Below are positions 4,945-29,673 of a stretch of 64,000 bases of DNA, one piece after another. The notes beneath the pieces were generated by a model, which saw only the letters and a list, made by a program, of their open reading frames with translations, was not told the origin of the DNA and did not search any database. The translations under genes were made by a program, and so were the position numbers. Position 1 is the stretch's first letter, and every line of letters starts with the position of its first letter. Source of the DNA: an uncultured virus (IMG/VR IMGVR_UViG_3300003601_000003) (Duplodnaviria > Heunggongvirae > Uroviricota > Caudoviricetes); the IMG/VR virus record IMGVR_UViG_3300003601_000003; one strand, 5' to 3'.

Positions 4945-5664
4945 ATGAGTGGATTTTCAGATTTCAGTCTCGGTTCTCAGTCCCCAATCCTTTCAGGTGG
5001 CAAAGTACGATGGAAGCCTCAAAAGGGTAAATTTCGTGTCACTTTTGCCGCTCTTCCAGGTCTTGAGGAAGAGGATGTTAAGTTTGAGGATAGCAACGGA
5101 GATCCTACTAACCCTTCTTTTAAAGGTGGTCGTAGACTTTACGCAAAAGATGTTGGGTACTTCTTGGATCATGGGCCAGAGTATCAAAAAATCGCAGGCA
5201 ACCCTTCAAAGACTTCGATTGCTACTACTTTAATCTTTTGGCCTACAGATGCTAACGGTTCATTAGATAAGGCTCGTTTCTCCAATGGTGAGTTTGAGAT
5301 CAAAACTTGGATCTTCTCACTCGACAAGTATCGTCAACTTGAGTCAATCAACACTGAGTTCCCTTTGAGTCAACATGACATTTCAATCACTGTGACTGAC
5401 CCTCAGTTCCATAAGATGACCTTTGCACCCTGTAAAGAGTCTTTGTTCAAGACCTTACATGATAAGGGATCTGATATGTTCAAGACTTGTATGGAGGCTG
5501 TAAAGCCTATCCACGCAAACATCCAGAATGATATCGCTCAAGACCTCACCATTGATCAGATTCGTGAGAAGATGAGTGGCTCAGTCGGTTCTCCTACAGG
5601 CAAGAGTGGTGGTGGATTCAATTCTAGCTTTGACGCAGATGAGATTCTTGACGGTATGCTCTAA
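4945..5664 (+). CDS. putative single-stranded DNA-binding protein
   Basis: Aromatic/Gly-rich beta-type body, Gly/Ser linker and acidic-hydrophobic C-terminus (DADEILDGML) as in phage SSBs; strong AGGAGA RBS. Confidence 0.5.
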   Translation: MSGFSDFSLGSQSPILSGGKVRWKPQKGKFRVTFAALPGLEEEDVKFEDSNGDPTNPSFKGGRRLYAKDVGYFLDHGPEYQKIAGNPSKTSIATTLIFWPTDANGSLDKARFSNGEFEIKTWIFSLDKYRQLESINTEFPLSQHDISITVTDPQFHKMTFAPCKESLFKTLHDKGSDMFKTCMEAVKPIHANIQNDIAQDLTIDQIREKMSGSVGSPTGKSGGGFNSSFDADEILDGML

Positions 5665-5666
5665 AG
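5631..5666 (+). repeat. 36-bp direct repeat, copy 1 (3' end of the SSB-like gene)
   Basis: tgacgcagatgagattcttgacggtatgctctaaag is identical to 6653-6688. Confidence 0.95.
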
Positions 5667-5732
5667 TCCTTGACTTTTTGACTTCGGTCATGGTTGAATA
5701 TGCTCAATAGCCTTTGATTCATCTAAAGGCTC

Positions 5733-5787
5733 AATGCCCCTTAGACCCCTCATCGCCACAGAGGGTGTTTAAGGGGCATTACTTTTT
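5733..5787 (+). terminator. putative intrinsic terminator
   Basis: aatgccccttagac ... gtttaaggggcatt stem followed by a T-tract. Confidence 0.6.
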
Positions 5788-5848
5788 GTAGTCCTTTTAT
5801 AGCCTCTCCTTTGGTGATCTCATTAACCCGAACCAATGGAGAAAAACC

Positions 5849-6613
5849 ATGAGAGCAGTACACATCTACGATTTTGACGGGACTTTATTTAGAACTCCAC
5901 AAAGACCAAACTGGTATGACAATAACTTGGATGGGGTTTGGCATCAAAACCCATTGAGTTTTGCAGAACCTTGTCTACCTAAAGGTGAGCGTTGGGTTAA
6001 GTCTATTGTTTCAGAAGCTAAGAGAAGCATCGCCTCAAAGGATGTTTACACCATCGTCCTTACAGGGCGTAAGACACCTTTTCAAAGAGTAGTTGAGGAT
6101 CTTTTAAGATCAAAAGGATTAAAGTTTGATGAGGTCATCTTGAAAGACAGAGGAGATACTGAGTCTTTTAAAAACAGAGTAATAGATCGCCTTATGGCAC
6201 TGTTTCCTGATGCAGAGATCCACATCTGGGAAGATAGACATAATCATTTAAAAGTATTCATGGATCACATCGAGATGAGAGGTGGCGTTGGAATCCCTCA
6301 CGCAGTACCGCAAAACTACTCGGTGGCTGAATGTTCTGAAGAGGAGTTTAGGGATATGAGAAGATCAGCATCAGAAACTATTAGAAATCTTGAGCATCGC
6401 ATTGCTCGACTTGAGGGGTCTAGGACAGCTTCAAGCGATGTTCGTAGAGCTGGCAAGAAAGTTATTGAAGCAATAGACAAGCTACAGGAAGAGCTTGAGA
6501 AGATGCCTTCCTTCAACAGTGATGAGTCTTACTATGAGGATTTAAGAGAGCGTTTTGAGGCACTTCACCTTAGCGTCCATAAAGAGGTTCAGTTCATCAC
6601 AGGTGCTTACTAA
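5849..6613 (+). CDS. HAD-superfamily phosphatase domain fused upstream of an internal MRRSASE-leader module
   Basis: IYDFDGTLF (DxDxT), LTGR and WEDR HAD motifs; leader MRRSASETIRNLEHRIARLE begins in frame at 6356. Confidence 0.75.
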   Translation: MRAVHIYDFDGTLFRTPQRPNWYDNNLDGVWHQNPLSFAEPCLPKGERWVKSIVSEAKRSIASKDVYTIVLTGRKTPFQRVVEDLLRSKGLKFDEVILKDRGDTESFKNRVIDRLMALFPDAEIHIWEDRHNHLKVFMDHIEMRGGVGIPHAVPQNYSVAECSEEEFRDMRRSASETIRNLEHRIARLEGSRTASSDVRRAGKKVIEAIDKLQEELEKMPSFNSDESYYEDLRERFEALHLSVHKEVQFITGAY

Positions 6614-6652
6614 GACTTAATCGTCTGAGACTCGAACACAGAGTTATACTGC

Positions 6653-6688
6653 TGACGCAGATGAGATTCTTGACGGTATGCTCTAAAG
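6653..6688 (+). repeat. 36-bp direct repeat, copy 2 (orphan copy of the SSB-like gene 3' end)
   Basis: Identical to 5631-5666; intergenic. Confidence 0.95.
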
Positions 6689-15727: not shown

Positions 15728-17173
15728 ATGGCATTTTTAAGATATGCTAGGGCTAATGTAGTACAGCCCTCTATTCATGGTCTACAATGGGATAAAGTTA
15801 GAATCGCTTCTGGTGATAAAACCATCAATGCCTCGCTCAAAAAGCAAGCTGAGGATATTCTAGGCGAACCTTTCACTCCCGATAGATTTCTACTTACACA
15901 CTCCACAATCGTTTGTTCTGTCGATGCTTTCACGCCTCCTAATACAAAGACAGGCTCGATCACTGAGGGTGGGCAAACCATTAACCGTAAATATGCTGAC
16001 TATCGTATAAGTTCAGATACAGATAAGTTCATCAATAACAACCTCGACTCATGGTCAAGGGAAGTGATCAAGAAGTCTTATCCGACTTTCATTGGTGCTC
16101 ATAACTTTGTTGAGCATATCCAAGTAGAAGAACTCTCAAAAGGTCGCATTATAGATGCAGTCCTTAGAGACATAGGTGAATCTCTATATGTAGACATCCT
16201 TGTCGCCACTGATCGTAAGCATGAAGACTTAGTAAAACAGATCGAGTCGGGTCAAATGAACGCAATGTCTATGGGATGTAGCGTAGACTTTACCATTTGT
16301 ACTAAATGTGGTCATGTAGCCGCTGATGAAACAGAGATGTGTTCTCATGTTAAATATGAGAAGGGCAATGTTTTCTATGATGAGCAAGGAAATCAGCATA
16401 GAGTAGCAGAGCTTTGTGGGCATGAAGATATTGGTGGCACAGCAGGTGTTACCTTCATTGAGGCTTCTTGGGTCGCAACTCCTGCATTTACAGGAGCTGT
16501 TGCTCGAAACACATTAGAGATACCCTCTGCTGATATGGCAAAATCTGCTTCGGATGTGGAACTAAATGAAGTCCCCGAAAAGTGGATCGCCAAAGCCTCT
16601 AGCTTACAAAGTTCTCCTTGGTATGACCCTCATGGTCAACTAACTAAAAAGGCTGGCCCTTTTGATATGGATGAGGATGAAGAAGAAGGTGGAGGCGATG
16701 ACGCTTCAACCCCTTCAGAGTCTTTGCTCAAACAATTAGAATCTGTGTATGAGACTGCTATTGTAGATCGTTTTCGTAAAAAACTAGAGAACGAGATCAA
16801 AGCAGAAAAAGCTCAAGAAGTTATGAACCCCCCAATAGATAAATCTGTCGTTGAGCAAAATGATACGATTATCAAAGAGGGAGTTTCTGCTTCTAAATAT
16901 ATGAGTCTCTTAGATGCTTCTGTTAAAACAGCTAAAACTGTTGAAGAAGCTGTCTTGAACATTACTTTGGTAAACAACCATTGTAAAGTTCATGTCCCGA
17001 CCCATGTTTATAAGTTGGCTAGTGTTCTAGGTACAACAACACAATATAATAGTGTTGTTGATTATCTTGAGCAAGCCAACTACTTAAACGGTAAAAAATT
17101 ATCGAAGCAAGACACTCTTCGTCTTGTAAGATTAGCTAAACTGTTATCCCTTAACACTTACGGGCAGAAATAA
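15728..17173 (+). CDS. prohead (capsid maturation) protease with Zn-finger insertion
   Basis: NFVEH...KGRIIDA...SMGC...CTKCG...CSH...FIEASWVATPA resembles HK97/herpes-type head proteases (H, S, E-x-S-x-V-x2-PA); first gene of the protease-scaffold-capsid order. Confidence 0.7.
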   Translation: MAFLRYARANVVQPSIHGLQWDKVRIASGDKTINASLKKQAEDILGEPFTPDRFLLTHSTIVCSVDAFTPPNTKTGSITEGGQTINRKYADYRISSDTDKFINNNLDSWSREVIKKSYPTFIGAHNFVEHIQVEELSKGRIIDAVLRDIGESLYVDILVATDRKHEDLVKQIESGQMNAMSMGCSVDFTICTKCGHVAADETEMCSHVKYEKGNVFYDEQGNQHRVAELCGHEDIGGTAGVTFIEASWVATPAFTGAVARNTLEIPSADMAKSASDVELNEVPEKWIAKASSLQSSPWYDPHGQLTKKAGPFDMDEDEEEGGGDDASTPSESLLKQLESVYETAIVDRFRKKLENEIKAEKAQEVMNPPIDKSVVEQNDTIIKEGVSASKYMSLLDASVKTAKTVEEAVLNITLVNNHCKVHVPTHVYKLASVLGTTTQYNSVVDYLEQANYLNGKKLSKQDTLRLVRLAKLLSLNTYGQK

Positions 17174-17209: not shown

Positions 17210-18787
17210 ATGTCTAGGTATTCTCGTTCTAAGAATATGTCACGCAGGGCAGAACTTGCTCGTAGAAGAAATCGCAGAGCAAACTCTGCCCTTCCAGGTT
17301 CTGATAACCTCGGTTGGGATCACTTCGGTCATCCTGCCTCCTCTGATCAACCCGATGTTGACGCTTATGGACTCGATTCAGAGTTCGGTGAAGGAGTCCG
17401 TAAAGGACCCTATCGCTCAGGCCCAGCTCCTGCCTCTGTAGGTTGGACTCCTGAACACCCTGCTTCTTCTGATGAGACCGCTGAGGATTATGCTCTTACT
17501 GATGATCTTCGCCAAGAGAATCTTAAGAAAGCTATGGAGCGTAAAGCGGCAAAGTGTATTCAAATCGCTGAATCTCGTCTTGGTCGTAGAGCTTCTCAAG
17601 TTGAAGTTGAAGATCTTGCACTACGCATGATGGATCTCCCTAATCGTACTGTTAATGCTCGTGTTGCTCGTCTTGCAGACAATGCTGTACAAGTCGGTAC
17701 TGACTATGATGATGGTCTTGACTTCACAGGTCCAGGTAATGCAAGTGATGAGATTGAAGCTGATGGTCACATGGGTCATGGTATGTTCGATGAATATGAC
17801 ATTGACGGTGATGAAATGATCGACATGAGCGAATGGGGTGGTTCAGACTCTGCATTCAACTCTATGGATACAAACGAAGACGGATTCCTTTCTCGTGATG
17901 AAGTCGCTATGGGTCTTGGTGAGTCATTCGCTGATGATATTGAAGCTGATGATGAACTCGCAAACATCATGGCTGAACTTGAAGCTGATGACATGGGTAT
18001 GAATTCAGCAGATCAACTAGCAGAAGAAATCGCTATGCTCAAAGCGGCAAACGCTCGTCTTGCTCGCAAGGTTCGTAAGCTCGCTGATAATGCTGTACAA
18101 GTTGGCACAGACAATCCAGTTGAAGACCCAGAACTACAGATCGACACTTCTCCAGAAAATGAGCCATCTGAAGGTCAACCTACTCAGCGTCTTGCTAAGA
18201 TTGAACGACTCGCAGAAGCTCTTTCTGCTTATATGTCTGATCGTCAAGCAGGAGATGACATGGCTTCTCTTCTTGCAGAGCTTGAGGCTGATGACTCTCG
18301 TGAAATGAACGATTCAAACTTTGGTTACACTGCCGAAGAAACTGTTGAAGCTCATGATATTGAAGCTCATGAACTTGAAGCTCATGAACTTGAAGCTGAT
18401 GATATTGAAGCTGATGATATTGAAACTCATATGATGGGTGAAGATGTCATGGGGCTTGATATGAACGCTGACGATCTGATGGCTATGGATCCTCGCCTCG
18501 CTTCAATCTTTACTGCATCTGATGAAGAAGATTCTGATGAAGAAGATTCTAGCGAAGAAGATTCTAGCGAAGAAGATTCTAGCGAAGAAGAAAAGACTGA
18601 AGAAGATTCTGAAGAAGAAAAGACTGAGGAAAAGGCTAAGAAGAAAGCTTCTTATCGCCCACGCACCTCAGCTCGTAAATCGGCAGTTAAGACTCTTGGG
18701 AACATTTCTCGTGAGGCTTCAAGAGGTTCAGACGAACTTTCTAAACTTTGGGAATCTGCTCCCGATGTAAGCAAGTTCTTCGGATAA
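17210..18787 (+). CDS. putative capsid scaffolding protein with two EF-hand-like loops
   Basis: Very acidic low-complexity coiled-coil protein between protease and capsid genes; repeats LADNAVQVGTD x2, EAHEL/EADDI, EEDSS; basic-hydrophobic C-terminus. Confidence 0.65.
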   Translation: MSRYSRSKNMSRRAELARRRNRRANSALPGSDNLGWDHFGHPASSDQPDVDAYGLDSEFGEGVRKGPYRSGPAPASVGWTPEHPASSDETAEDYALTDDLRQENLKKAMERKAAKCIQIAESRLGRRASQVEVEDLALRMMDLPNRTVNARVARLADNAVQVGTDYDDGLDFTGPGNASDEIEADGHMGHGMFDEYDIDGDEMIDMSEWGGSDSAFNSMDTNEDGFLSRDEVAMGLGESFADDIEADDELANIMAELEADDMGMNSADQLAEEIAMLKAANARLARKVRKLADNAVQVGTDNPVEDPELQIDTSPENEPSEGQPTQRLAKIERLAEALSAYMSDRQAGDDMASLLAELEADDSREMNDSNFGYTAEETVEAHDIEAHELEAHELEADDIEADDIETHMMGEDVMGLDMNADDLMAMDPRLASIFTASDEEDSDEEDSSEEDSSEEDSSEEEKTEEDSEEEKTEEKAKKKASYRPRTSARKSAVKTLGNISREASRGSDELSKLWESAPDVSKFFG

Positions 18788-18929: not shown

Positions 18930-19517
18930 ATGGCTCTACTTGGACAAGCTAGTGGTGGTTTTACAGAGTCAAGCTCTGCGTTGCGTATACTTCATGTTGG
19001 TGTGCGTAATACTGTAGGTCAACTACACAGCAGTGCTTTCACTCAGTCAAACCCCGTTTTTGGTGCTAATGCTACATCAGCACCAGGTCTTTTAACAAAT
19101 GTACTCGGAGTACTTAGCGGTTCTATCGCTTTTACTCGTGGTACTACTAACGAGCATGGTGGACCTTCAGTGGCAGCCGCTCCTGCTACTGAGCGTGTGC
19201 TTGGTGTTTTCATCAACAATGCTTCGGGCAATGCTTTTGAGAATCAACCAGGTGTTGCTTCTAACCGTGGCCCATATGTTTCTGCACAAGGTACTTTTGC
19301 GAACCTTCTGTATGAGACAGTAAATGTTGCTACCAATGCTGACATCACAGCAACTTATGTTCCTGGTGCTACATTGATTGCTTCTATCAATGGTTTCTTG
19401 ACCACCGCTGTAAATAATGCAAATCACGATCATACTGATAGTGCTACTACCATCGGTATTCTTAAAATCTCTCCCGACTCAACTTCTGATGAGTTGGTAT
19501 ACGACCAACGCATCTGA
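18930..19517 (+). CDS. putative head decoration / minor capsid protein
   Basis: Small-residue-rich beta-type protein immediately before the major capsid gene; own class-1 promoter. Confidence 0.55.
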   Translation: MALLGQASGGFTESSSALRILHVGVRNTVGQLHSSAFTQSNPVFGANATSAPGLLTNVLGVLSGSIAFTRGTTNEHGGPSVAAAPATERVLGVFINNASGNAFENQPGVASNRGPYVSAQGTFANLLYETVNVATNADITATYVPGATLIASINGFLTTAVNNANHDHTDSATTIGILKISPDSTSDELVYDQRI

Positions 19518-19539
19518 TAGAAAGGAAGAGTGATTTATT

Positions 19540-20418
19540 ATGAGTAATACAGTTGATAATGCCGTAAAACAGAAGATCATTTCTGACTACATTAAGACTC
19601 CTCAAGGTCGTGCGAAGCTCGCCGCTTCAATGACTCAACCTTTACGCCTTCGTAGAGATTACACCTCTGTTGGTCGCAAGACTTTCTTAGTCGAGCAACT
19701 TCCAGACGGTGCTTTACCTATCTACGACAAAGACCCAGATGTTACTGCATTTGTGGTTGGTGAAGAGGGTGAAAACATTCTTGCAATCACCAAACCTCGT
19801 AGGGTTATCTTCCCTCTTTTCGAGATTGCTTCAAATCCTGAGATTCCTTTGACTCAAATCAAAGAGCGTAGATTTGACCTTATCGAGAGGGCACAAGATT
19901 TAGCTCGTGCTCAAATCCAAGCGGCTGAAGACGAGCGTGTATTCGCTATTCTTGACGCAGTTGCGGCAAACGGATTTGATTCAGTTGCAGGTCAAACTAA
20001 CGCTGACCTTCCTGTTATCGCTCCTCTTAATGGTGCTGTTCTTGCTGACGCATTTAGCCTCATTGAGCGTCACGACCTTCGTGTTGCCCGTATCTTCATG
20101 AATGCTCGTGATTATGCTGACATCCGTAAGTTCGGTAGAGATATCCTCGACATCGAGAGCCAAGCGGCACTTCTCAAGACTGGTCTTCAGGCTACTCTTT
20201 GGGGTGCTCAGATCATCACTAGCCGTCTTGTTCCTGTTGGAACTGTTTATGTCTGCTGTGAGCCAGAAATGTTCGGTCGTATCCCTGTTCGTACAGAATT
20301 GACCGTTCTCTCTGCTGACGATCCAAAAGCTCGTACAATTGGTTTTTCAGTGTTCGAGAATTTGGGTATTGGTGCCTACAACCCTCGTGGTCTTGCTCGT
20401 CTTACAGTACAGCGTTAA
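19540..20418 (+). CDS. major capsid protein (HK97-like fold)
   Basis: Position after protease/scaffold/decoration genes, strongly biased codon usage, strong terminator; sequence pattern (LAASMTQPLR..RDY..VGRK, AQIQAAED, FMN..DY.DIR.F, LWGAQII.S..VP.GTVY) like capsid proteins of large phages. Confidence 0.75.
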   Translation: MSNTVDNAVKQKIISDYIKTPQGRAKLAASMTQPLRLRRDYTSVGRKTFLVEQLPDGALPIYDKDPDVTAFVVGEEGENILAITKPRRVIFPLFEIASNPEIPLTQIKERRFDLIERAQDLARAQIQAAEDERVFAILDAVAANGFDSVAGQTNADLPVIAPLNGAVLADAFSLIERHDLRVARIFMNARDYADIRKFGRDILDIESQAALLKTGLQATLWGAQIITSRLVPVGTVYVCCEPEMFGRIPVRTELTVLSADDPKARTIGFSVFENLGIGAYNPRGLARLTVQR

Positions 20419-20476
20419 TATCTAGTATATTCGCTTTACTTTCGCCTACTTAGGTAGGTGTAAGAGGTCATAGAAA

Positions 20477-20509
20477 GAACCTCATCTTCTTCGGAAGGTG
20501 GGGTTTTTT
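20477..20509 (+). terminator. intrinsic terminator after the major capsid gene
   Basis: gaacctcatcttc-ttcg-gaaggtggggttt stem with UUCG loop and T-tract. Confidence 0.85.
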
Positions 20510-20601
20510 CGTATCTAGGGTTCTTTTCTTTGGCTTAACTCACTCTCCTATGGTACAAGTCTTACACTCTTAAACACTAAGAACCACATAAGGAGTGTAA
20601 G

Positions 20602-21087
20602 ATGAACAACAATTTTGTTCCAGTTCCCACAGTAATGGAAGCCATGACAGGTTTCCTCTGTAGTAAGGCTTTTCTTATCTATCTAATTATATTTGGTGTT
20701 CTATTTTTTATATGGCTTTTTATCAAAAAAGAGAGGAGAGAAGAAGCTGATCTCTATCGAGCATTAGTGAGAGAAGTGAGAGAAAACCAAAATCTTAAGC
20801 GAAGACTAGGACAGACACCAAATGAAGAGCAAGATGATATGTACTCCAACGAGGTACTCACCTCGTCATATGATTTATGCGAATCATATACCAAAGATAT
20901 CAAATGGAGAAACGCAGGTCTCAGACATGATATAAAAATACTAAACATCGAGGATAAAGAGACACTATTGAAAGCGAAGGCTCTACTTTTGTACTTAACT
21001 ACCTCGGAGAAACAAACCCCACAATTTATTGAGGGTGTTCAGAAAACGCTCAAGGTTATTACGATCCTAGAAAAGAGTGTAAGATGA
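20602..21087 (+). CDS. membrane-anchored hypothetical protein
   Basis: Single TM helix (FLIYLIIFGVLFFIWLFI); AAGGAG RBS. Confidence 0.65.
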   Translation: MNNNFVPVPTVMEAMTGFLCSKAFLIYLIIFGVLFFIWLFIKKERREEADLYRALVREVRENQNLKRRLGQTPNEEQDDMYSNEVLTSSYDLCESYTKDIKWRNAGLRHDIKILNIEDKETLLKAKALLLYLTTSEKQTPQFIEGVQKTLKVITILEKSVR

Positions 21088-21995
21088 GAGCGATACCATG
21101 CCCTATATCTAAAGAGCGTTTTGAAGACCTCTATACTAAACAATACTTAACAGAGAAGCAGATTAACGAGTTGTTGATTTCTGAGGGTATTGACTCAAGC
21201 ATGAAGCGTATTGGTAGTTGGAGACTACGCTATGGGATTGAAACGGTATCTAAGTTTGATCGTCTTGAGCTACCAAAGATTGAGGGGGAGTTAAGATCAA
21301 TCCTTATTGGTTCTATGCTAGGTGACGGTCGTATTGTTTTTCGTACTAACGCTTCACACTATGAGGAACGACACGCACCCAATCAGAAAGAGTATCTTGA
21401 GTGGAAGCAAGAGAAGTGGGGCGTGTGGTCATCTGGAGATTTAGCAGTAGCGATGAGTAGGGAGTTCCCTAGTTATATCTTTCGCACCCACGCTCACCCT
21501 ATGCTAAATGAGTATCGAGACTTGTTCTATGAGGAGAGGGATAAGGGGTGGAAAGTTGTTAAGTCTGATGTTATAGACCAAGTAGATGAGTTAGCTTTGG
21601 CTATGTGGTATCTCGATGATGGTCATGCAGGACATTGGCCTATGATTTGTTTTGGGGCAAAACAGGGGAGTCGAGCTAACGCTTACTTAATCTTTGAGAA
21701 GTTTGGTTTAGCCCCTAACTGGACACATAAAAAAGGGGAGACAGGAGAGTTCCACTTTAAGGGTGAGAACGCTTATCGTTTCATTGAGATCATTAAGCCT
21801 CATGTACCCGATTGTATGTCTTACAAGTTGGACTTTGGTTTTCAAGGTCGTAACAATGCTATCAAGAAAAAGATGGACAAAGGCATCTTAGAGGACTTAA
21901 GGAGTAAGGGGTGGGGTAAGCGTAGGATAGCTAGGTATCTTGATGTAGGGGCGAGTACAGTGGGTCGTTGGATGGTTAAGTTTGGAGTGGAGTGA
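21084..21995 (+). CDS. free-standing LAGLIDADG homing endonuclease with terminal HTH segments
   Basis: Two LAGLIDADG-type helices: ILIGSMLGDG and ALAMWYLDDG; C-terminal RRIARYLDVGASTVGRW HTH. Confidence 0.85.
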   Translation: MRAIPCPISKERFEDLYTKQYLTEKQINELLISEGIDSSMKRIGSWRLRYGIETVSKFDRLELPKIEGELRSILIGSMLGDGRIVFRTNASHYEERHAPNQKEYLEWKQEKWGVWSSGDLAVAMSREFPSYIFRTHAHPMLNEYRDLFYEERDKGWKVVKSDVIDQVDELALAMWYLDDGHAGHWPMICFGAKQGSRANAYLIFEKFGLAPNWTHKKGETGEFHFKGENAYRFIEIIKPHVPDCMSYKLDFGFQGRNNAIKKKMDKGILEDLRSKGWGKRRIARYLDVGASTVGRWMVKFGVE

Positions 21996-22066
21996 GGACT
22001 TTGATAGTTTATTTATAATAGATCTTAAGTGATCTCTTTAACCAAGAATCCAAATGGAGAAACATT

Positions 22067-22381
22067 ATGCGTAGATCAGCATCAGAAATCATCAATAACC
22101 TTGAGAATAGGGTTGCACGACTTGAATCAAGTTCTAACCCTCGTCAAGCTAAAGATGCTTATGATATTTGGAGAAGGAAAGTAGATCAGTACATCATTAA
22201 GGAAATGCGGGTCACTTTTGAATACGAAACAAAAGACGGTGAACACTCCGAAGACTATATAAACAGTCTTTGGCAAGATGGAGTTAAGCCATCACGAGCC
22301 TCCAAAAATATCATGCAGAAATTTCAATGGTTAAAGTCAGCGGGTATGCTAAAGCATCATAAATATTATGATGCTATTTGA
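22067..22381 (+). CDS. MRRSASE-leader cassette protein, unknown payload
   Basis: Full conserved upstream block plus leader MRRSASEIINNLENRVARLE. Confidence 0.8.
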   Translation: MRRSASEIINNLENRVARLESSSNPRQAKDAYDIWRRKVDQYIIKEMRVTFEYETKDGEHSEDYINSLWQDGVKPSRASKNIMQKFQWLKSAGMLKHHKYYDAI

Positions 22382-22510
22382 ATGGTTATTGAAAGGGATC
22401 TAGGGATTTGATGTAGGGGCGAGTACAGTGAGTCGTTGGATGGTTAAGTTTGGGGTGGATTGATTTGTAGTTTATTTATTAGTGTCTATTATCCATAAAG
22501 GAGAGACACC

Positions 22511-23041
22511 ATGAGACTTACTATCGCTTTACTCTTATCTGTCTTGCTCACCTCTACGATTTCTCACGCTGAAGAGAATAACTGGGAAGTGAGTCTAGGC
22601 ACAACGCAAATGTTCATCGGTGGGTACGAAGAGGGTTCAATACCTGTACCTACGAACTCTGCCACATTCATCTTATCTCGTAAGATGTATGAGAGCTTTG
22701 CATTATGGGTTGTGTTCAATCTACCTACCTCCTCTAACAAAAGGTTTACAGAGGAAGGTTTACTTGTAGAGTCTCAGACACCACCTAGTCTTATGCTAGG
22801 TGCGAGTTATGAGTTATTGGGCTATGAGATCTCCGACAAGAAATCTTTAGGTCTTGATGTTGGTGCTTCAGTCGGACACACGATTACGCTTAATGGTCAG
22901 TTCTTCCCTGTGGGTGCGTTTCGTTTGAAGTTCGTTAAAGACGAGGACAGCACTATGTATGCAGGGGTGACAACCTCACCATATAATCCAGATGGTGATT
23001 TGGTTTGGGGTTTGATCTATGGCATGGGGTATAGATTTTAA
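22511..23041 (+). CDS. putative outer-membrane beta-barrel protein
   Basis: Cleavable signal peptide (…TISHA|EE), alternating amphipathic strands, C-terminal YGMGYRF beta-signal. Confidence 0.65.
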   Translation: MRLTIALLLSVLLTSTISHAEENNWEVSLGTTQMFIGGYEEGSIPVPTNSATFILSRKMYESFALWVVFNLPTSSNKRFTEEGLLVESQTPPSLMLGASYELLGYEISDKKSLGLDVGASVGHTITLNGQFFPVGAFRLKFVKDEDSTMYAGVTTSPYNPDGDLVWGLIYGMGYRF

Positions 23042-23150
23042 TGTGAGTGCGAGTACAGTGGGTCGTTGGATGGTTAAGTTTGAGGTTTTGTAGTTTCTTT
23101 ATAATAGATCTTAAGTGATCTCTTTAACCTTAATCAAATGGAGAACCATT

Positions 23151-23630
23151 ATGAGAAGATCTGCATCAGAAATCATTAATAACCTTGAGACTCGTATCGC
23201 AAGACTTGAAAGACAAGCATATCACCCTGATGACCCACGATCACAAGAGATGGGTGGTTATAGAGAGCCTGCGGGGGGAGAGTGGCATGAGCCTGAGATT
23301 CTTACTGGAAAAAAGTTTCTCAGGTGGTTACAAAATGATCGGGAGATCAAATCCCATTTAAATAAGAGCGTGTTTATAGATGTTTCTTCATCTACTATCA
23401 CCTTTGACACATCTTGGTGGTCAAAATATACAAGAAATGGTAATACCTTGGATGGGATTCTATACAGCATTTGGGACAATCCTATGTTGGGGCGGGATTG
23501 GAAGATAAGAGGGAGAAATGTGACTATCAAGGGTTTGTGGGGAGACCTTGTGTACGGGGAGGGTGATATTTATGCACAAGAAACCTTTACCATCAAGAAG
23601 AGTCGTGGTTCTATCGTTTTAAAGGCATAG
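23151..23630 (+). CDS. MRRSASE-leader cassette protein, unknown payload
   Basis: Conserved upstream block; start reassigned to the leader ATG at 23151. Confidence 0.8.
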   Translation: MRRSASEIINNLETRIARLERQAYHPDDPRSQEMGGYREPAGGEWHEPEILTGKKFLRWLQNDREIKSHLNKSVFIDVSSSTITFDTSWWSKYTRNGNTLDGILYSIWDNPMLGRDWKIRGRNVTIKGLWGDLVYGEGDIYAQETFTIKKSRGSIVLKA

Positions 23631-23815
23631 TCTATCTGTGGCCTTAATTAAGTTATCATCTCTGATGATGTTTTAAACAAAGATGAGAGACAAAAGGTTT
23701 ACACTTAGCCACAAGTGGGGAGTTTTTGTTCCTAGTGGAAGATAGATTTGAATAAGTTTAATAGTTTGTTTATATACCTTTTCTTGAACACACTTAACAA
23801 AGAAGGATATTCATT

Positions 23816-24181
23816 ATGAGAAACTTACTCACAATCGCACTTATTGCTCTTACCTTTATTGCTTGCGACAAGGATAAAGAAGAAACCACACCTAACGATG
23901 GTGGTATGGAAGCTGGGGCTACCGCAGGATCAGAGGCAGGATCTGAAGCAGGAACTGAAGCAGGGTCTGATGCAGGAACTGAAGCAGGGACAGAAATGGA
24001 CATGATGGTTATGGGTGGTTCTGAAGAGACTACAGACATGGAAATTACTGAAGGTGGTACTGAGTCTGATATGGGTATGGACGAAGCGGGTATGGAATCT
24101 ACGGACATGGAAGTAGTTGAGGGTGGTTCAGATGAATCTACGGATATGGGATCTGATACCGAAGCTGGAACTGAGGGCTAG
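23816..24181 (+). CDS. acidic low-complexity lipoprotein
   Basis: Lipobox-like LTFIA|C after a hydrophobic core; (G)[ST]EAG and TDME repeats. Confidence 0.7.
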   Translation: MRNLLTIALIALTFIACDKDKEETTPNDGGMEAGATAGSEAGSEAGTEAGSDAGTEAGTEMDMMVMGGSEETTDMEITEGGTESDMGMDEAGMESTDMEVVEGGSDESTDMGSDTEAGTEG

Positions 24182-24220
24182 TAGTCTTGCTCGTCTAAAT
24201 GGTCTTTAAGATCTTAGAAT

Positions 24221-24253
24221 GAACCTCATTTCCCTTTGGGATTTGGGGTTTTT
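24221..24253 (+). terminator. putative intrinsic terminator
   Basis: gaacctca...tccc-ttt-ggga...tggggttttt; arms similar to the capsid terminator. Confidence 0.6.
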
Positions 24254-24322
24254 CCGTTTATAGTTTGTTTATAAGTGATCTTAAGTGATCTCATTAACCT
24301 TAAACAAAATGGAGAAACCATT

Positions 24323-24757
24323 ATGAGAAGATCAGCATCAGAAATTATTAGAGGACTTGAGAATAGGGTTGCACGACTTGAAAGACAATCCTCAACCAAC
24401 CGTAGGGCTAGAAAGTACGGGAAAGCGATCACAGACGCTGTTCGGATGCTTAAGAAAGAGGTGGGCGATGCAGATGCGTCTGAGATTGAAGTGGTGGTGG
24501 TAGAGCTAGTCCATTATAAATTTGAGGATCTGCTTAGAGAGATCGAGGACAGAGGTCCTAATGCTGAAGAGTACTATGAAAATGAAGTTGTAAATAAGTA
24601 CCCAGCACTGGTCAAAGCAGGTATTCTATCCGCTGAAATATGGATACAACATCCCAAAATAATCCGAGACCGATACAGGTTGAAAAACTTAAAGGAAGTT
24701 AATCTCTTCGCTGAGTGCATTGGGTCAAGAAAATTGGCTGAGGGGCTCAGTTTCTGA
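24323..24757 (+). CDS. MRRSASE-leader cassette protein, unknown payload
   Basis: Conserved upstream block; leader ATG at 24323. Confidence 0.8.
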   Translation: MRRSASEIIRGLENRVARLERQSSTNRRARKYGKAITDAVRMLKKEVGDADASEIEVVVVELVHYKFEDLLREIEDRGPNAEEYYENEVVNKYPALVKAGILSAEIWIQHPKIIRDRYRLKNLKEVNLFAECIGSRKLAEGLSF

Positions 24758-24824
24758 TCCCTATTTAATCTTACAAGATGGGGTCTAAGTTAAGGGATAA
24801 GATGCTGTTTGGGGTAGAGTGAGG

Positions 24825-25946
24825 TTAATGGTCGATCCCTTGTTCACATAAAGGACAAGTATCTCCAATCTCGCACCTAATAGTATCAAGCTCCTCTGTG
24901 AGCCTTTCTACCTCTTGTTCGGTGCAAGATATACGACTGAATAGATCAAAGCGTTCAGAAGCGATTCTGAGGTCTTTTTCGACTTGCGAATCTACATTAG
25001 GTAAGTCTACATTAAGTTGTGTGATTTGTAAGATGGTTTGATCTAATTGATTTCTTTTGTGCAAGACCCGCTCAAGTGGTGCAGGGTCTTTCACCTCTAC
25101 ATCTGGGATAGGTGGGAATGAGGTTAAGCCAACCTCTACGATACCTTCCATGATCCTTAGTCTGTTCTTTTCTATACGAACACGCTCAAGGTCTTTAATC
25201 CCCATAAAGTCATGTGGGTTCACTTGTGGGAATTTTACATTTTGCAAGGTGGATACGAACTGTGTTTGAAACATAAAGATTTCTCTCTTTTCTTTGATTG
25301 CCCCTAGCTTTTTAACTCTTTCTTCAAGAGTCTTAATCGACCCCTCAAGTGTACTTATATGATTGATCGTTTCCCCTACTTCGTCCAACTCGTTAAACTT
25401 AGGTAAACGATCCCGCTCAGATACTAAATCTTCATGCTTTACTTTAATGCGTTGATTAAGGTTCTTAGTTTCGTTCCTAGAGAGACTTGACGCTTTCTCT
25501 AGGGCTTCTATTGTCTTTACATCAGATAAAGCACTAGAGAGGACACTAGGTGGCATATCAAGCAAGAAGATTTGTTCAAACTGTCGAGCGATCTGAGGCC
25601 ATACAGTTTTTCCATCGACATCTACCGAAACAATGTTCAAGTCATCAAGTTCATCGGGAGTTTTTGACCCTACTTTATCTAACTTTTGTCCGTTGATCTC
25701 ATATTTATTAACCCCTTTACCCTTTTCCCAAATTACCGAGTTGCCATCATCAAAGTTGATGGAGACTTTTGATGACTTTTCACCTTGCCTTACATGAGAA
25801 TATCCCCTTGCATTAGAGAAAGCACCTGCTATGGCTCTTGCACAAGCAGACTTACCTGTATTATTAGCCCCTGTAATAACAGTAAGACCTTTAACTTCAA
25901 AGTCAGCGTGTTTGATAGATTGGTAGTTTTCTATTTTGACTTGCAT
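24825..25946 (-). CDS. SbcC/Rad50-like (gp46-like) ATPase, N-terminal half ending at a CxxC hook
   Basis: IENYQSI...ITGANNTGKS Walker A; coiled coil; CPLC at the C-terminus; no Walker B/signature half in this ORF. Confidence 0.75.
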   Translation of the reverse strand: MQVKIENYQSIKHADFEVKGLTVITGANNTGKSACARAIAGAFSNARGYSHVRQGEKSSKVSINFDDGNSVIWEKGKGVNKYEINGQKLDKVGSKTPDELDDLNIVSVDVDGKTVWPQIARQFEQIFLLDMPPSVLSSALSDVKTIEALEKASSLSRNETKNLNQRIKVKHEDLVSERDRLPKFNELDEVGETINHISTLEGSIKTLEERVKKLGAIKEKREIFMFQTQFVSTLQNVKFPQVNPHDFMGIKDLERVRIEKNRLRIMEGIVEVGLTSFPPIPDVEVKDPAPLERVLHKRNQLDQTILQITQLNVDLPNVDSQVEKDLRIASERFDLFSRISCTEQEVERLTEELDTIRCEIGDTCPLCEQGIDH

Positions 25947-26047
25947 GGTGTCTTGTCTCCCATTCCCTTTATATGAATGATACCGAGTTTAGGTTTTTGT
26001 AACCCCTTAAATATACCCTTATGTAACTCTTGAAAGGAGACTAAGAC

Positions 26048-26560: not shown

Positions 26561-26935
26561 ATGAGAAGATCAGCTAGTGAAATCATCCGTAACCTTGAGG
26601 GTCGTATTGCTCGTCTTGAAAAATCGGCTCGTCCGAATGACATAGGTATACATAAAGTAGTCAACAAATTGGCATATATACATCAATTTTCTTCGGGGTC
26701 CATGGTTCTATCTGTGCCTAGTAGAAATGCTGACGAAGTGGTAAGGGCAATCAAGGAGATTGGTGTGGGAGCAGAGAATCCATTTGAGGAAAACGATATC
26801 ACTTATAAGAAAGATAATAAAGGACACATGGTTACATTCACTGTTTCATCACCCGAATGGTTAAGAACACATGATGTGGTTCTAAGCCTAAAACTAGATG
26901 GTTTTTTCCTAGTGTCTCACGATGACTTTAGATGA
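26561..26935 (+). CDS. MRRSASE-leader cassette protein, unknown payload
   Basis: Conserved upstream block; leader ATG at 26561. Confidence 0.8.
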   Translation: MRRSASEIIRNLEGRIARLEKSARPNDIGIHKVVNKLAYIHQFSSGSMVLSVPSRNADEVVRAIKEIGVGAENPFEENDITYKKDNKGHMVTFTVSSPEWLRTHDVVLSLKLDGFFLVSHDDFR

Positions 26936-27060
26936 GGGGATGTCTGAAACTCCAATTCAGAACCAGGAATCTCTTGTTGGTAGAGGTTATCTGATCTAAG
27001 AGTCTTAAACCTCCTCTAAATAGTATAAGGGTACATATACCCTATATGAGAGGAGAGAAG

Positions 27061-28254
27061 ATGTCATTAGACACGAAGTATAGACCTAGAACATACAGCG
27101 ATGTGCTAGGTCAAAAGGCTACCATCCAAACGCTCAAAGGCTTTATTAAGTCAGATGCAGGTTGGAGGCAGTCTTACCTATTCGCTGGCCCTTATGGTTC
27201 GGGCAAAACTACACTGGGTCGGATCATGGCTCGTGCTTTATTATGTGAGTCGCCTGTTGAGGGTGTGCCTTGTGATGAATGTCATTCATGTAAAGCTATG
27301 CTTGTTGGTAGCCATGACTCATTTATCGAAGTGGATGCGGCTACCAACAGTGGGAAAGCAGATGTAAAGAAGCTACTCGAAGAGCTAGGTTATTCTTCCT
27401 TTTCGGGTAATAAGAAGCTCTACCTCTTTGACGAAAGTCACCAGCTAAGTCGGGATGCACTGGATGCTCTCTTAAAACCGATGGAGGAGAATGATCGAGG
27501 TAGCTTTGATAAGAAGCTCGTCTGTATCTTCGCCACCACTGAACCAGAGAAGATGAGAAAGACGGTATTAAGTCGGTGTGCTCCTGCTTTTATCATTCGT
27601 CATGTGGATTCAGAAGAAATCGCTGATCGTTTACAAAAGGTTTGTGAGTGTGAGGGATTCGAGTATGAGCGTGAAGCATTGGTCTTAATAGCTGACTTTA
27701 CAGAGGGGCATATTCGAGATGCTTTAAAAGCGATTGAGGGTGTTGCTTCCTCAAATGAAGGCAAGGTGGGTCTACTAGGTGTAAGGTCTTATCTTCATGT
27801 GGATCGCAATGATGTAATCTGTCAGCTATTATTGAGTGATAACTCTAAGTCCTTAAGCCTAGTAGATGAGTTATTACAGTCTACCCCTGTGGGTATTGCT
27901 TATGACAGGTTGCAATCAGCGTGTATGTTTGCGATTTCTCTTGGGATGAAAGCGGGCGTACCTCCACCATATTGGAACAGACCTCTTTTACAAGAGATAT
28001 GGGATAGGTATGGTATGCCTTTGTTAAGCCTCGCAGACAGTTTAGCGAGTCGCCCGATCAGACCAACAGGAGGTATGTTTAAGTGCGATTTATTGAAATG
28101 GAAGATTGGGGGTATCCAAACCATACAAGTGACTCAAACTTTAGTAGAGAAAAAATCCCTTGTTTCAGAGCCTCAAGTGAATAATACACGATTAAAGAGC
28201 CAACTTTCGTTGTCTGAGTTTAGTAAGATGGTAAAAAGAATGGTATCTATCTAA
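27061..28254 (+). CDS. dnaX: DNA polymerase III gamma/tau-like clamp loader subunit
   Basis: KYRP.T..DV.GQ, YLFAGPYGSGKTT..RI.A..L.C, PC..C..C, EVDAA, DESH.LS, ATTEPEK...TVLSRC, GHIRDAL. Confidence 0.9.
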   Translation: MSLDTKYRPRTYSDVLGQKATIQTLKGFIKSDAGWRQSYLFAGPYGSGKTTLGRIMARALLCESPVEGVPCDECHSCKAMLVGSHDSFIEVDAATNSGKADVKKLLEELGYSSFSGNKKLYLFDESHQLSRDALDALLKPMEENDRGSFDKKLVCIFATTEPEKMRKTVLSRCAPAFIIRHVDSEEIADRLQKVCECEGFEYEREALVLIADFTEGHIRDALKAIEGVASSNEGKVGLLGVRSYLHVDRNDVICQLLLSDNSKSLSLVDELLQSTPVGIAYDRLQSACMFAISLGMKAGVPPPYWNRPLLQEIWDRYGMPLLSLADSLASRPIRPTGGMFKCDLLKWKIGGIQTIQVTQTLVEKKSLVSEPQVNNTRLKSQLSLSEFSKMVKRMVSI

Positions 28255-29368: not shown

Positions 29369-29616
29369 CCGATAAGATCTTACCTAAAGACATCGTAAAA
29401 AGATGGGTCGCAGAAGTGATGACTCAAAAGTACGACATCACGATACACCCTCAAGAGTATCCTTTTGGAGAAAAGTTCATACGCAATCTACAACGAGAGG
29501 ATTGGGATGTGAGTATAATTGAAGACCATAAAATTGTGATCACTTCTAATGACCCGATCAAGCTGGCACACTTAACAATCAAACTTAGGAATCAAGGATT
29601 CCTGATAGAGGATTGA
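29365..29616 (+). CDS. hypothetical protein
   Basis: ATGA-coupled ORF. Confidence 0.55.
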   Translation: MTDKILPKDIVKRWVAEVMTQKYDITIHPQEYPFGEKFIRNLQREDWDVSIIEDHKIVITSNDPIKLAHLTIKLRNQGFLIED

Positions 29617-29673
29617 TTTGTAGTTTATCTATTACTGTTAATACTTGTAGATTTAAACTCAAAGGAGAACACA

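What the first reader, a model, noticed from the sequence alone, without database searches (positions are those of the whole stretch)
21941..23630. Integron-like tandem array: three cassettes each preceded by a copy of the homing-endonuclease 3' end
Seen: the last ~18 codons of the LAGLIDADG gene (DVGASTVGRWMVKFGVE*) recur at 22409-22463 as DVGASTVSRWMVKFGVD* and at 23049-23093 as ASTVGRWMVKFEVL*. Each copy is followed immediately by the class-1 promoter and one gene (leader protein, beta-barrel OMP, leader protein). The variants keep the reading frame and a stop. Inference: cassettes were added one at a time at the same gene end, each arriving with an allelic version of that gene end. The repeats would also allow cassette excision or shuffling by recombination.
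Basis: partly seen in the sequence, partly recalled or inferred. Interest (0 to 1): 0.85.

Follow-up and report, generated by a model that had tools for sequence, protein, structure and literature searches.

The report
Homing-endonuclease gene stubs between phage cassettes
In a huge marine phage, two short dead copies of the end of a selfish nuclease gene sit between small add-on genes and record how strains stacked each other's gene cassettes by sloppy recombination, not by an integron-like machine.

Summary
The last 56 nt of a LAGLIDADG homing-endonuclease gene (HEG, 21084-21995) recur at 22408-22463 and 23038-23093, each just before a promoter-like motif and one gene. The same arrangement stands in seven independently assembled contigs.

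The window belongs to a marine huge phage; a complete relative has 376 kb. The HEG lies just after the major capsid gene and is sporadic among relatives. The stretch from the HEG to a Rad50/SbcC-like gene differs in cassette content in nearly every relative.

One relative (L043) has the full HEG directly before the OMP gene, with the allele that the window carries as copy 2.

The copies are non-coding and unstructured. No integrase was found in the 66 ORFs scanned, and each cassette has its own promoter-like motif. I therefore do not support "integron-like" as a mechanism.

Best reading: the copies are scars of HEG deletion and unequal or illegitimate recombination, in a hypervariable region that works like the promoter-terminator (PeSL) shuffling regions of T4-type phages. 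Their common left boundary matches a 7-nt direct repeat (ATCTTGA) that brackets the HEG operon in some relatives. One contig (L138) is exactly that deletion.

A second, unrelated gene-end duplication (5631-5666 = 6653-6688) shows the process is not specific to the HEG. Interest is moderate.

The parts
19540..20418 (+). Major capsid protein gene, the conserved left anchor of the locus
   Evidence: tblastn 47% to the Tunturiibacter phage major head protein, 39% to Bacillus phage G major head protein and 89% to uncultured 485-kb phage LR745208.1. Weak Pfam Phage_capsid match, below cutoff. 573 relatives in IMG/VR.
20443..20522 (+). Terminator hairpins plus the tail CGTATCTAGGG after the capsid gene, a composite terminator/promoter-proximal module that recurs at cassette borders in relatives
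   Evidence: DNA fold -14.7 kcal/mol, z -5.0. The same module is seen at cassette borders in L047, L050, L053 and L138.
20602..21087 (+). Small variable gene overlapping the HEG start (ATGA), replaced by unrelated genes in most HEG-bearing relatives
   Evidence: ORF list. Present only in window-type loci and L029/L086 (87%). No family match.
21084..21995 (+). Free-standing LAGLIDADG homing endonuclease gene with two LAGLIDADG motifs and N- and C-terminal helix-turn-helix ends; intact
   Evidence: Pfam LAGLIDADG_2 1.1e-19; PHROG 11023 5.6e-19. dN/dS 0.05-0.39 across 21 allele pairs, motifs LGDG and YLDDG conserved. Sporadic among relatives.
21940..21995 (+). Copy 1: the true 3' end of the HEG (codons for LDVGASTVGRWMVKFGVE*)
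   Evidence: The C-terminal HTH is conserved in HEG homologues of 57-64% identity.
22005..22381 (+). Cassette 1: promoter-like motif (22005-22016) and leader-family gene lead1 (22067-22381, 104 aa)
   Evidence: The lead1 body is found only in window-type contigs (7 of 7 loci).
22400..22463 (+). Copy 2: orphan non-coding HEG 3' stub. The left flank is ATCTAGGGATTTGAT and the stub proper starts at GTAGGGG (22413)
   Evidence: Differs by 1 nt from the L043 HEG end. Its first 46 nt are identical to the L138 stub.
22468..23041 (+). Cassette 2: promoter-like motif (22468-22479) and a secreted 8-strand beta-barrel outer-membrane-protein-like gene (22511-23041)
23038..23093 (+). Copy 3: orphan non-coding HEG 3' stub that abuts the OMP stop codon and carries a 7-nt deletion near its end
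   Evidence: The undeleted form is in L043/L143 and in a marine run.
23091..23630 (+). Cassette 3: promoter-like motif (23091-23102) and leader-family gene lead2 (23151-23630, 159 aa)
   Evidence: The body is replaced by another sequence in L043.
23816..24757 (+). Further cassettes of the same hypervariable stretch: an acidic lipoprotein-like gene (23816-24181) and leader-family gene lead3 (24323-24757)
   Evidence: The lipobox reading is inference from the sequence.
24825..25946 (-). Rad50/SbcC-like ATPase gene, the conserved right anchor of the hypervariable stretch
   Evidence: Pfam AAA_23, AAA_15 and AAA_21; PHROG exonuclease / SbcC-like. 82-86% identical in relatives.
5631..6688 (+). Second, independent example. 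A 36-nt exact copy of the 3' end of gene 4945-5664 (5631-5666) recurs at 6653-6688, after an inserted promoter and cassette segment
   Evidence: (D10). Relatives L212 and L213 have only the single gene end.

Best explanation
The window is part of a marine huge phage. Directly after its major capsid gene lies a free-standing, intact LAGLIDADG homing endonuclease gene, followed by a hypervariable run of small, self-promoted cassettes that ends at a Rad50/SbcC-like gene. The cassettes are leader-family genes, an OMP-like barrel and a lipoprotein-like gene.

The two extra copies of the HEG 3' end are dead stubs, not genes and not recombination sites of a dedicated system. They are what is left when a HEG operon is deleted between short direct repeats, or when an unequal or illegitimate crossover falls just inside the HEG end.

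During mixed infection, the array of one strain, starting with such a stub or with the HEG end, was joined behind the first cassette or cassettes of another strain. This happened at least twice. First an OMP cassette was placed in front of [stub + leader cassette], giving the state kept in L043. Then [HEG + lead1] was placed in front of [stub + OMP ...], giving the window.

Shared terminator-tail, promoter and leader sequences provide the homology for such exchanges, as PeSL motifs do in T4-type phages. Double-strand breaks made by the HEG in HEG-less co-infecting genomes probably raise the rate at this locus.

Shown: the anatomy, the allelic match to L043, the L138 deletion form, the non-coding and unstructured nature of the stubs, the variation among relatives, and a second gene-end duplication elsewhere in the window. 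Inferred: the order of events, the role of mixed infection, and any contribution of HEG cleavage.
For: (1) Copies are real and present in 7 independent contigs.
(2) The HEG is a working gene whose last 19 codons are under coding constraint: dN<dS in 20 of 21 pairs, with dS 0 in the other. HEGs of 57-64% identity keep the same C-terminal HTH. The stubs therefore derive from the HEG, not the reverse.
(3) The stubs are non-coding. They fold no better than shuffles (z -0.38 and -0.52) and match no Rfam family.
(4) L043/L026 has full HEG, then OMP, then stub, then a leader gene. Window 22400-23188 is 97.9% identical to L043 5548-6345, which begins inside L043's HEG.
(5) Gene order between the HEG and the ATPase gene differs among relatives: L027 HEG-lead-ATPase; L028 HEG-lead-OMP-ATPase; L031 HEG-X-OMP-lead-ATPase; L049/L053 have no HEG.
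(6) Of 80 capsid-gene loci, 17 carry this HEG, 10 carry a HEG of 57-64% identity, 35 carry none and 18 are too short to tell. These loci are not dereplicated.
(7) L138 equals an L050-type locus with promoter, small gene and HEG nt 1-854 deleted between two ATCTTGA repeats. That repeat is exact in the left flank of L027, L050 and L072, i.e. 3 of 7 HEG-bearing types, and has one mismatch in L048.
(8) HEG-less genomes still carry stubs: L047-type, and a shorter one after OMP in L049/L053.
(9) Other gene-end stubs exist: 5631-5666 = 6653-6688 in the window, absent from L212/L213, and a 58-nt stub of the ATPase gene's 3' end in L047.
(10) Logan contigs of 3 of the 4 marine runs laid show alternative joints, all with short sides: capsid terminator to OMP promoter in 2 runs, and HEG-end promoter to lead2 in 1 run.
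(11) Published model for shuffling by promoter-terminator motifs: PMC2839356 (abstract and section 16 read) and PMC4122927 (abstract read).
Against: All long stubs start within HEG nt 848-862 of 912; no 5' or middle HEG fragment was found in any fetched locus. A scan for the best short similarity between the native left partners and the HEG did not single out that position. Random illegitimate joining alone therefore does not explain the common boundary.

The ATCTTGA repeat explains L138 directly. The window-type, L043-type and L086-type genomes lack the left copy of that repeat, so for copies 2 and 3 the explanation needs an extra step: the stub formed in another strain and was then moved.

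No parent genome with lead1 in another context was found. HEG cleavage, its target site and mixed infection are untested. The contig evidence for population variants comes from short k-mer contigs that break at these very repeats.
Confidence: 0.68

Rival explanations
1. In-situ HEG decay. Full-length HEG copies once sat before the OMP cassette and before the lead2 cassette of the same genome, after repeated homing into promoter-proximal sites. Each was later deleted except for its last ~56 nt.
For: L138 shows that deletion of the whole HEG operon down to the last 56 nt does occur. The HEG is sporadic, as expected of a gain-and-loss cycle. HEG-less genomes carry stubs.
Against: No fetched locus has two HEG hits. 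A complete 376-kb relative and a 227-kb relative each have one HEG and one 3' end. Copy 3 abuts the OMP stop codon with no trace of the HEG operon's left end. The L043 arrangement explains copy 2 without a second HEG insertion.
Confidence: 0.15
2. A dedicated, site-specific cassette-capture platform. A nuclease or recombinase breaks the HEG at about nt 855, new cassettes are captured there, and each capture duplicates the 56-nt end, which serves as the recombination site.
For: Four junction classes with different left flanks share the same HEG boundary within a few nt. The best-microhomology scan does not single out that site. New cassettes appear at the HEG-proximal side. A type IB topoisomerase-like gene lies at 8079-9536. 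That poxvirus type IB enzymes can drive sequence-specific illegitimate recombination is recalled, not checked here.
Against: No integrase was found among 66 ORFs scanned. The repeat has no hairpin. Each cassette carries its own promoter-like motif. The boundary coincides with a plain 7-nt direct repeat in relatives, and L138 is the deletion between them. A shorter stub exists. An unrelated gene end is duplicated the same way elsewhere. Only 4-5 junction classes exist in all collections searched. A shared motif between the two duplicated gene ends was not significant.
Confidence: 0.08
3. The 56-nt piece has been co-opted as an upstream regulatory element, such as an activator or HEG-HTH binding site, for the downstream promoter. 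It is kept by selection wherever that promoter type moves.
For: The 34-nt core is identical or differs by 1 nt in all three window copies while the flanks diverge. The piece always lies directly upstream of a TAGTTTNTTTAT motif in the window.
Against: Spacing between the piece and the motif varies (9, 4 and about 5 nt after a 7-nt deletion). Most of the 26 motif copies in the window lack the piece. The L047 stub has lost its 3' part and the promoter. OMP and leader cassettes in L028, L031, L048 and L098 lack it. Core identity is equally explained by recent origin and gene conversion.
Confidence: 0.05
4. The repeats are an assembly artefact.
For: Short-read k-mer contigs break at the repeats.
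Against: The arrangement is identical in 7 separately assembled IMG/VR contigs of 5-206 kb. A 1065-nt contig from another run bridges lead1, copy 2 and OMP. The copies differ from each other, so they cannot be collapsed or duplicated reads of one sequence.
Confidence: 0.01

Closest known systems
PeSL (promoter-early stem-loop) mediated modular shuffling in hyperplastic regions of T4-type phages (Arbiol et al. 2010, PMC2839356, abstract and section 16 read; Comeau et al. 2014, PMC4122927, abstract read)
   Same: Small non-essential ORFan cassettes, each with its own promoter. Composite terminator/promoter sequences at cassette borders. Insertions, deletions and replacements between close relatives bounded by those sequences. 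Exchange by recombination between repeats.
   Different: The phage lineage is different: the capsid protein is nearest to Bacillus phage G-like huge phages. The promoter motif is different (TAGTTTNTTTAT). The conserved 5' coding leader of many cassettes adds homology. Here some junctions fall inside the upstream gene and leave gene-end stubs, which the PeSL model does not predict. Mini-circles were not tested.
Free-standing homing endonuclease genes of phages and their gain, decay and loss cycle; HEGs at boundaries of genetic exchange (Barth, Dunham and Seed 2023, PMC10055350, abstract read; the cyclical model of Goddard and Burt is recalled)
   Same: An intact LAGLIDADG gene next to an essential conserved gene (capsid). 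Sporadic presence among close relatives. Different HEG lineages occupy the same locus. Mosaic sequence on both sides.
   Different: The remnants here are short 3' stubs carried along with neighbouring cassettes into new positions, including into genomes that still hold the intact gene. No cleavage site is known.
Integrons (intI, attI, attC cassettes)
   Same: An array of single-gene cassettes, each preceded by a copy of one short sequence. The newest cassette sits nearest the fixed end. Cassette content varies among relatives.
   Different: No integrase was found. The repeat does not fold like attC. Cassettes carry their own promoters. The repeat is a fragment of a protein-coding gene. Only two extra copies exist.
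Internally deleted transposable elements formed by deletion between short direct repeats or by abortive gap repair (for example P-element derivatives; recalled)
   Same: L138 keeps 14 nt of the left end and 56 nt of the right end of the HEG operon, joined at a 7-nt repeat.
   Different: A HEG has no terminal repeats and no transposase. The stubs are later moved passively by recombination.

Membership tests
Integron | Adjacent tyrosine-recombinase integrase (intI) | tested here: not met
   Pfam scan of 66 window ORFs (20 at E<=0.01, 46 at E<=1e-4) gave no integrase family. ORFs under 80 aa and a few shadow ORFs were not scanned.
Integron | attC-type site: imperfect inverted repeats that fold as single-stranded hairpins at each cassette border | tested here: not met
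   DNA folds of copy 1 and copy 2 regions are at shuffle level (z -0.38 and -0.52). The only good hairpin near copy 3 lies in the OMP 3' end, not in the repeat.
Integron | Promoterless cassettes read from a common promoter | tested here: not met
   Each cassette is preceded by its own TAGTTTNTTTAT motif. Promoter function itself was not tested.
Integron | Cassette presence, absence and order vary among relatives | tested here: met
PeSL-like modular shuffling region | Conserved composite terminator/promoter motifs flanking ORFan cassettes | tested here: met
   Terminator hairpin z -5.0. The tail GTATCTAGGG plus promoter motif recurs at cassette borders in L047, L050, L053 and L138. The motif has 26 matches against 2.8 expected. 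In the window itself the full tail occurs once.
PeSL-like modular shuffling region | Indels and replacements between close relatives end in those motifs | tested here: met
   Pairwise blastn of the window against L043, L050 and L047, and of L050 against L049 and L053. Homology breaks fall at terminator, promoter or leader sequences or at the stubs.
PeSL-like modular shuffling region | Excised mini-circles | not testable with these tools
   Only contigs, no raw reads, were available for the runs found.
LAGLIDADG homing endonuclease (free-standing) | LAGLIDADG domain with two catalytic motifs | tested here: met
   Pfam PF03161 at 1.1e-19. Motifs ...LGDG... and ...YLDDG... are conserved in 7 alleles.
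LAGLIDADG homing endonuclease (free-standing) | Sporadic distribution at one locus among close relatives | tested here: met
   Of 80 loci: 17 with this HEG, 10 with a divergent HEG, 35 without, 18 too short.
LAGLIDADG homing endonuclease (free-standing) | Site-specific cleavage of the HEG-less allele and homing | not testable with these tools
   Needs enzyme assays or mixed infections.
8-strand outer-membrane beta-barrel (OmpX/Ail/OmpA-TM/OmpW-like) | Signal peptide, 8 antiparallel strands and a C-terminal aromatic residue | tested here: met
   AlphaFold model pLDDT 76, pTM 0.70. 23 PDB chains match at E<=0.001, topped by Ail, OmpA-TM and OmpX. The N-terminal hydrophobic helix and terminal ...YRF are read from the sequence. 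TM-scores are only 0.43-0.55.
8-strand outer-membrane beta-barrel (OmpX/Ail/OmpA-TM/OmpW-like) | Sequence membership in a curated family | tested here: not met
   No Pfam, PHROG or NCBIfam match.

The most novel reading that the evidence does not exclude
The common boundary of all long stubs (HEG nt about 855) marks a recurrent, enzyme-made break inside the 3' end of the homing endonuclease gene. The break would be made by the HEG itself, a rival nuclease or the phage's type IB topoisomerase-like protein. Huge marine phages would then use it as a cassette-capture point. Each capture would duplicate the 56-nt gene end and put the newcomer next to the capsid operon. This would be an integrase-free counterpart of an integron, driven by a selfish nuclease.
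Probability: 0.07. Interest if true: 0.8.

Novelty: new variant of a known kind. Interest (0 to 1): 0.38.

Why it matters
The locus gives a readable record of how huge phages in the sea trade small accessory genes. The gene-end stubs act as fossils. They show which cassettes once lay next to the homing endonuclease, that strains lost the endonuclease and kept its footprint, and that whole arrays were joined behind one another.

It extends the promoter-terminator shuffling picture, worked out in T4-type phages, to an unrelated lineage of 300-480-kb phages. It also ties that picture to a mobile nuclease sitting beside the capsid gene.

If the common stub boundary turned out to be an enzyme-made break, it would be a new kind of gene-capture device. 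On present evidence that is unlikely.

Tried and rejected
1. DNA search of GenBank phages with 20600-24800 found no match. The window's own assembly is not held; the nearest record, G001, is 100% identical over 19500-26000, so it adds no independent variation.

2. Hunting for more stubs. Four degenerate-pattern scans of IMG/VR and one of metagenome contigs gave only window-type contigs, L043-type, L047-type (L117, L142, L147) and L138. All other hits were chance matches in unrelated sequence.

3. lead1 in another context was not found; 7 of 7 loci are window-type. The 'left parent' is therefore unknown.

4. Microhomology as the sole cause of the common boundary. Local-alignment scans of six native left partners against three HEG alleles did not put nt about 855 on top.

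5. A shared nuclease motif at the two duplicated gene ends (CTTKGAYGYAG): 13 matches against 7.3 expected, and the HEG site itself is not among them. Dropped.

6. The hairpin or attC idea and known RNA families or a group I intron around the HEG (only one match, E 0.39, far below gathering) gave nothing.

7. Genome-wide frequency of gene-end stubs. A self-blast of the complete 376-kb relative G002 gave 6 short direct-repeat pairs, nearly all promoter or leader repeats and at most one candidate stub. The phenomenon is rare, not rampant.

8. Earlier notes of this scan: none for this genome.

9. Circles or collapsed junctions in reads. Only Logan contigs were available, so absence of back-joints says nothing.

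10. Two literature queries failed on term format and were re-sent. Two searches turned up no paper describing HEG 3' stubs between phage cassettes. This claim of 'not in print' rests on those two full-text searches only.
Full report
**What is in the sequence**

One search finds three direct copies of 56 nt at 21940-21995, 22408-22463 (95% identical) and 23038-23093 (80%). A 34-nt core is identical in copies 1 and 3 and differs by one base in copy 2. None of 100 shuffles gave a match.

Copy 1 is the true end of ORF 21084-21995, a LAGLIDADG_2 endonuclease (Pfam E 1.1e-19; PHROG 11023). Each copy is followed within a few bases by TAGTTTNTTTAT, a motif with 26 matches in the window against 2.8 expected. 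One ORF follows each motif:
- lead1 (22067-22381)
- an OMP-like gene (22511-23041)
- lead2 (23151-23630)

The OMP label holds at the level of fold. A model built from nine homologues (pLDDT 76) matches Ail, OmpA-TM, OmpX and OmpW (E about 1e-5, TM 0.43-0.55). No sequence family matches it.

The extra copies are not genes. Copy 2 has an in-frame TAG just upstream. The open stretches are 19 and 25 codons long. Copy 3's 'stop' is the TAG of the promoter motif, reached after a 7-nt deletion.

**Context**

The capsid protein (19540-20418) is 89% identical to that of an uncultured 485-kb phage. It is 47% and 39% identical to those of Tunturiibacter phage Tunturi_5 and Bacillus phage G. A complete relative, G002, has 375,691 bp.

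Upstream lie a head-maturation protease (15728-17173) and a scaffold-like acidic protein. Downstream lie a Rad50/SbcC-like ATPase gene (24825-25946, minus strand) and a clamp-loader gene (27046-28254).

All 20 sequencing runs that hold the stretch are marine or seawater metagenomes.

**Not an artefact**

The exact three-copy pattern occurs in seven distinct IMG/VR contigs (10 loci). A contig from another run bridges lead1, copy 2 and the OMP gene.

**Relatives**

The HEG protein retrieved 22 loci and the capsid protein 80 of 573. Of the 80 capsid loci (not dereplicated):
- 17 carry this HEG at 80% identity or more
- 10 carry a HEG of 57-64% identity directly after the capsid gene
- 35 carry none within 1.5 kb
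- 18 are too short to tell

LR745208.1 has yet another LAGLIDADG gene (28% identity) beside its capsid gene. The capsid-downstream site is therefore a recurrent home for homing endonucleases.

The HEG is functional by sequence. dN/dS is 0.05-0.39 over 21 allele pairs, both catalytic motifs are conserved, and the last 19 codons are also constrained. The distant homologues keep the same C-terminal helix-turn-helix. The 56 nt therefore originate from the HEG, not from a pre-existing intergenic element.

**The stretch from the HEG to the ATPase gene is different in almost every relative**:

| Type | Gene order |
|---|---|
| Window | HEG - lead1 - stub - OMP - stub - lead2 - lipoprotein-like gene - lead3 - ATPase |
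| L043/L026 | HEG - OMP - stub - another leader gene - lipoprotein-like gene - leader gene - ATPase |
| L027 | HEG - leader gene - ATPase |
| L028/L050 | HEG - leader gene - OMP - ATPase |
| L031/L048 | HEG - gene X - OMP - leader gene - ATPase |
| L049/L053 | no HEG |

The small gene upstream of the HEG also varies.

The decisive comparison is with L043. Window 22400-23188 (copy 2, OMP promoter, OMP gene, copy 3, next promoter) is 97.9% identical to L043 5548-6345, a segment that begins inside L043's full-length HEG. Copy 2 differs from L043's HEG end by one base and from the window's own HEG end by three.

So copy 2 is the HEG end of an L043-like strain that arrived together with the OMP cassette. 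Copy 3 is older, since it is shared with L043.

**What kind of process**

I tested four integron features.
- Integrase: none found among 66 ORFs scanned.
- attC-like fold: the repeat does not fold (z -0.38 and -0.52), while the capsid terminator does (z -5.0).
- Promoterless cassettes: each cassette has its own promoter-like motif.
- Known RNA families: none matches.

Cassette borders in the relatives carry a recurring composite. It consists of a terminator hairpin, the tail GTATCTAGGG, the promoter motif and, for the leader genes, a conserved 60-nt 5' coding leader. Homology between genomes breaks at exactly these elements or at the stubs.

This is the architecture described for PeSL-mediated modular shuffling in T4-type phages (PMC2839356, abstract and section 16; PMC4122927, abstract). 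HEGs at boundaries of genetic exchange have also been described (PMC10055350, abstract).

**Origin of the stubs**

Besides the window's two copies I found three further stubs:
- the L043/L143 version of copy 3, without the 7-nt deletion
- a stub in the HEG-less L047-type contigs, placed after a terminator and truncated on both sides
- L138, a metagenome contig

L138 is an L050-type locus in which the promoter region, the small gene and HEG nt 1-854 are missing. The joint lies in a 7-nt repeat, ATCTTGA. This repeat stands once just after the capsid terminator, in a -35-like TTGACC, and once in HEG codons Tyr-Leu-Asp.

The left copy of that repeat is exact in L027, L050 and L072 and has one mismatch in L048. 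It is absent from the window, L043 and L086 types. The first 46 nt of the window's copy 2 are identical to the L138 stub.

A shorter, degenerate stub (about HEG nt 880-912) follows the OMP gene in the HEG-less L049/L053.

Stubs therefore arise by deletion of the HEG operon and then persist. They travel with the neighbouring promoter and cassette, and they end up both in HEG-less genomes and behind other cassettes in HEG-bearing ones. Patchy identity among copies within a genome (AAG in all three window copies, AAA in both L043 copies; mosaic 5' and 3' parts) indicates gene conversion between them.

**The point that remains partly open**

All long stubs begin at HEG nt 848-862, and no other HEG fragment occurs in any fetched locus. 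A scan for the best short similarity between the native left partners and the HEG does not favour that position.

The ATCTTGA repeat gives a plain cause for L138. It also accounts for the others if the stub was formed that way once or a few times and was then moved by recombination in its flanks. The left flank of copy 2 (ATCTAGGGATTTGAT) can be read in two ways: as the L138 flank with two small deletions, or as the ordinary terminator tail seen in L050. I could not decide between these readings.

An enzyme-made break at this point is not excluded. I give it about 7%.

**The process is not specific to the HEG**

Elsewhere in the window, the last 36 nt of gene 4945-5664 (5631-5666) recur exactly at 6653-6688. 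This second copy lies after an inserted promoter plus cassette segment. Relatives L212 and L213 have the single gene end only.

L047 also carries a 58-nt stub of the ATPase gene's 3' end. Such stubs are rare overall: two loci in this 64-kb window, and at most one candidate in the 376-kb relative.

**Population evidence**

Contigs of four marine runs laid on 20300-25000 show several variant forms:
- a joint from the capsid terminator straight to the OMP promoter, in 2 runs
- a joint from the HEG-end promoter to lead2, in 1 run, inside a 32-nt shared stretch
- replacement of the leader-gene bodies
- the undeleted form of copy 3

These are short k-mer contigs with short sides. They show that variants exist but say nothing about frequency or about circles.

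**Verdict**

The historical inference (stepwise stacking, allelic ends, repeats that recombine) is supported. The mechanistic label 'integron-like' is not.

The most likely reading (about 0.68) is that the copies are recombination and deletion scars in a PeSL-like hypervariable region beside a mobile homing endonuclease. This is a new variant of known kinds of phage genome plasticity, of moderate interest.

Noticed in passing
window 6356-6613, 22067-22381, 23151-23630, 24323-24757, 26561-26935, 37184-37573(-), 37576-38259(-), 52156-53067, 53526-54194, 54545-54982(-): Ten ORFs begin with the same 20 residues (MRRSASEIIxNLExRIARLE), followed by unrelated bodies of 85-303 aa. One body is a JmjC/cupin domain. 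They lie near the head protease, scaffold and capsid genes. This resembles the conserved capsid-targeting sequence on the otherwise diverse internal proteins of T-even phages (PMC3012670, passages read). It may be a packaging or protease-processing signal; this was not tested.
   Followed up: partly
window 5631-5666 and 6653-6688: An exact 36-nt duplication of the 3' end of gene 4945-5664 flanks a 1022-nt inserted promoter and cassette segment. Relatives L212 and L213 have only one copy. This is the same kind of gene-end stub as in the finding.
   Followed up: yes
L047 4497-4554 (also L117, L142, L147): A HEG-less relative carries a 58-nt stub of the Rad50/SbcC-like gene's 3' end and, about 80 nt further on, a 31-34-nt HEG stub truncated on both sides.
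   Followed up: partly
window 29610-29638: The end of ORF 29365-29616 plus the promoter-like motif before the 2191-aa helicase-like gene matches the end of copy 2 plus the OMP promoter at 27 of 29 nt (family D16). This suggests promoter-region exchange that includes the last bases of the upstream gene.
   Followed up: no
window 8079-9536 (-): A 485-aa ORF matches the eukaryotic/poxvirus-type topoisomerase IB catalytic core (Pfam Topoisom_I, 2.2e-13). This is unusual for a phage and a candidate agent of illegitimate recombination.
   Followed up: no
window 46972-47535, 47532-48188, 48185-48901: A DNA methylase appears split. The N-terminal part of N6_N4_Mtase (profile 1-98) and the C-terminal part (profile 150-219) lie in two ORFs separated by a 218-aa ORF without any family match. 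This may be an inserted element.
   Followed up: no
window 62894-64000: An ORF running off the window end carries a LAGLIDADG_3 domain at its last residues. This may be a second homing endonuclease or an intein.
   Followed up: no
window 1291-1321, 11976-12002, 25998-26026, 40392-40495, 43085-43113, 50162-50190: A second repeated intergenic motif class (ATAAATAAGGGGTTAC and its reverse complement) was seen (families D9, D15, D19, D20), and again in G002. It may be another promoter class.
   Followed up: no
LR745208.1 395474-397290: An uncultured 485-kb phage with an 89% identical capsid protein has a different LAGLIDADG gene (28% identity) directly beside its capsid gene.
   Followed up: no
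window 17700-18650: The 525-aa ORF between the protease and capsid genes holds an EF-hand match and long runs of 15-nt acidic tandem repeats, as expected of a scaffold-like protein.
   Followed up: no
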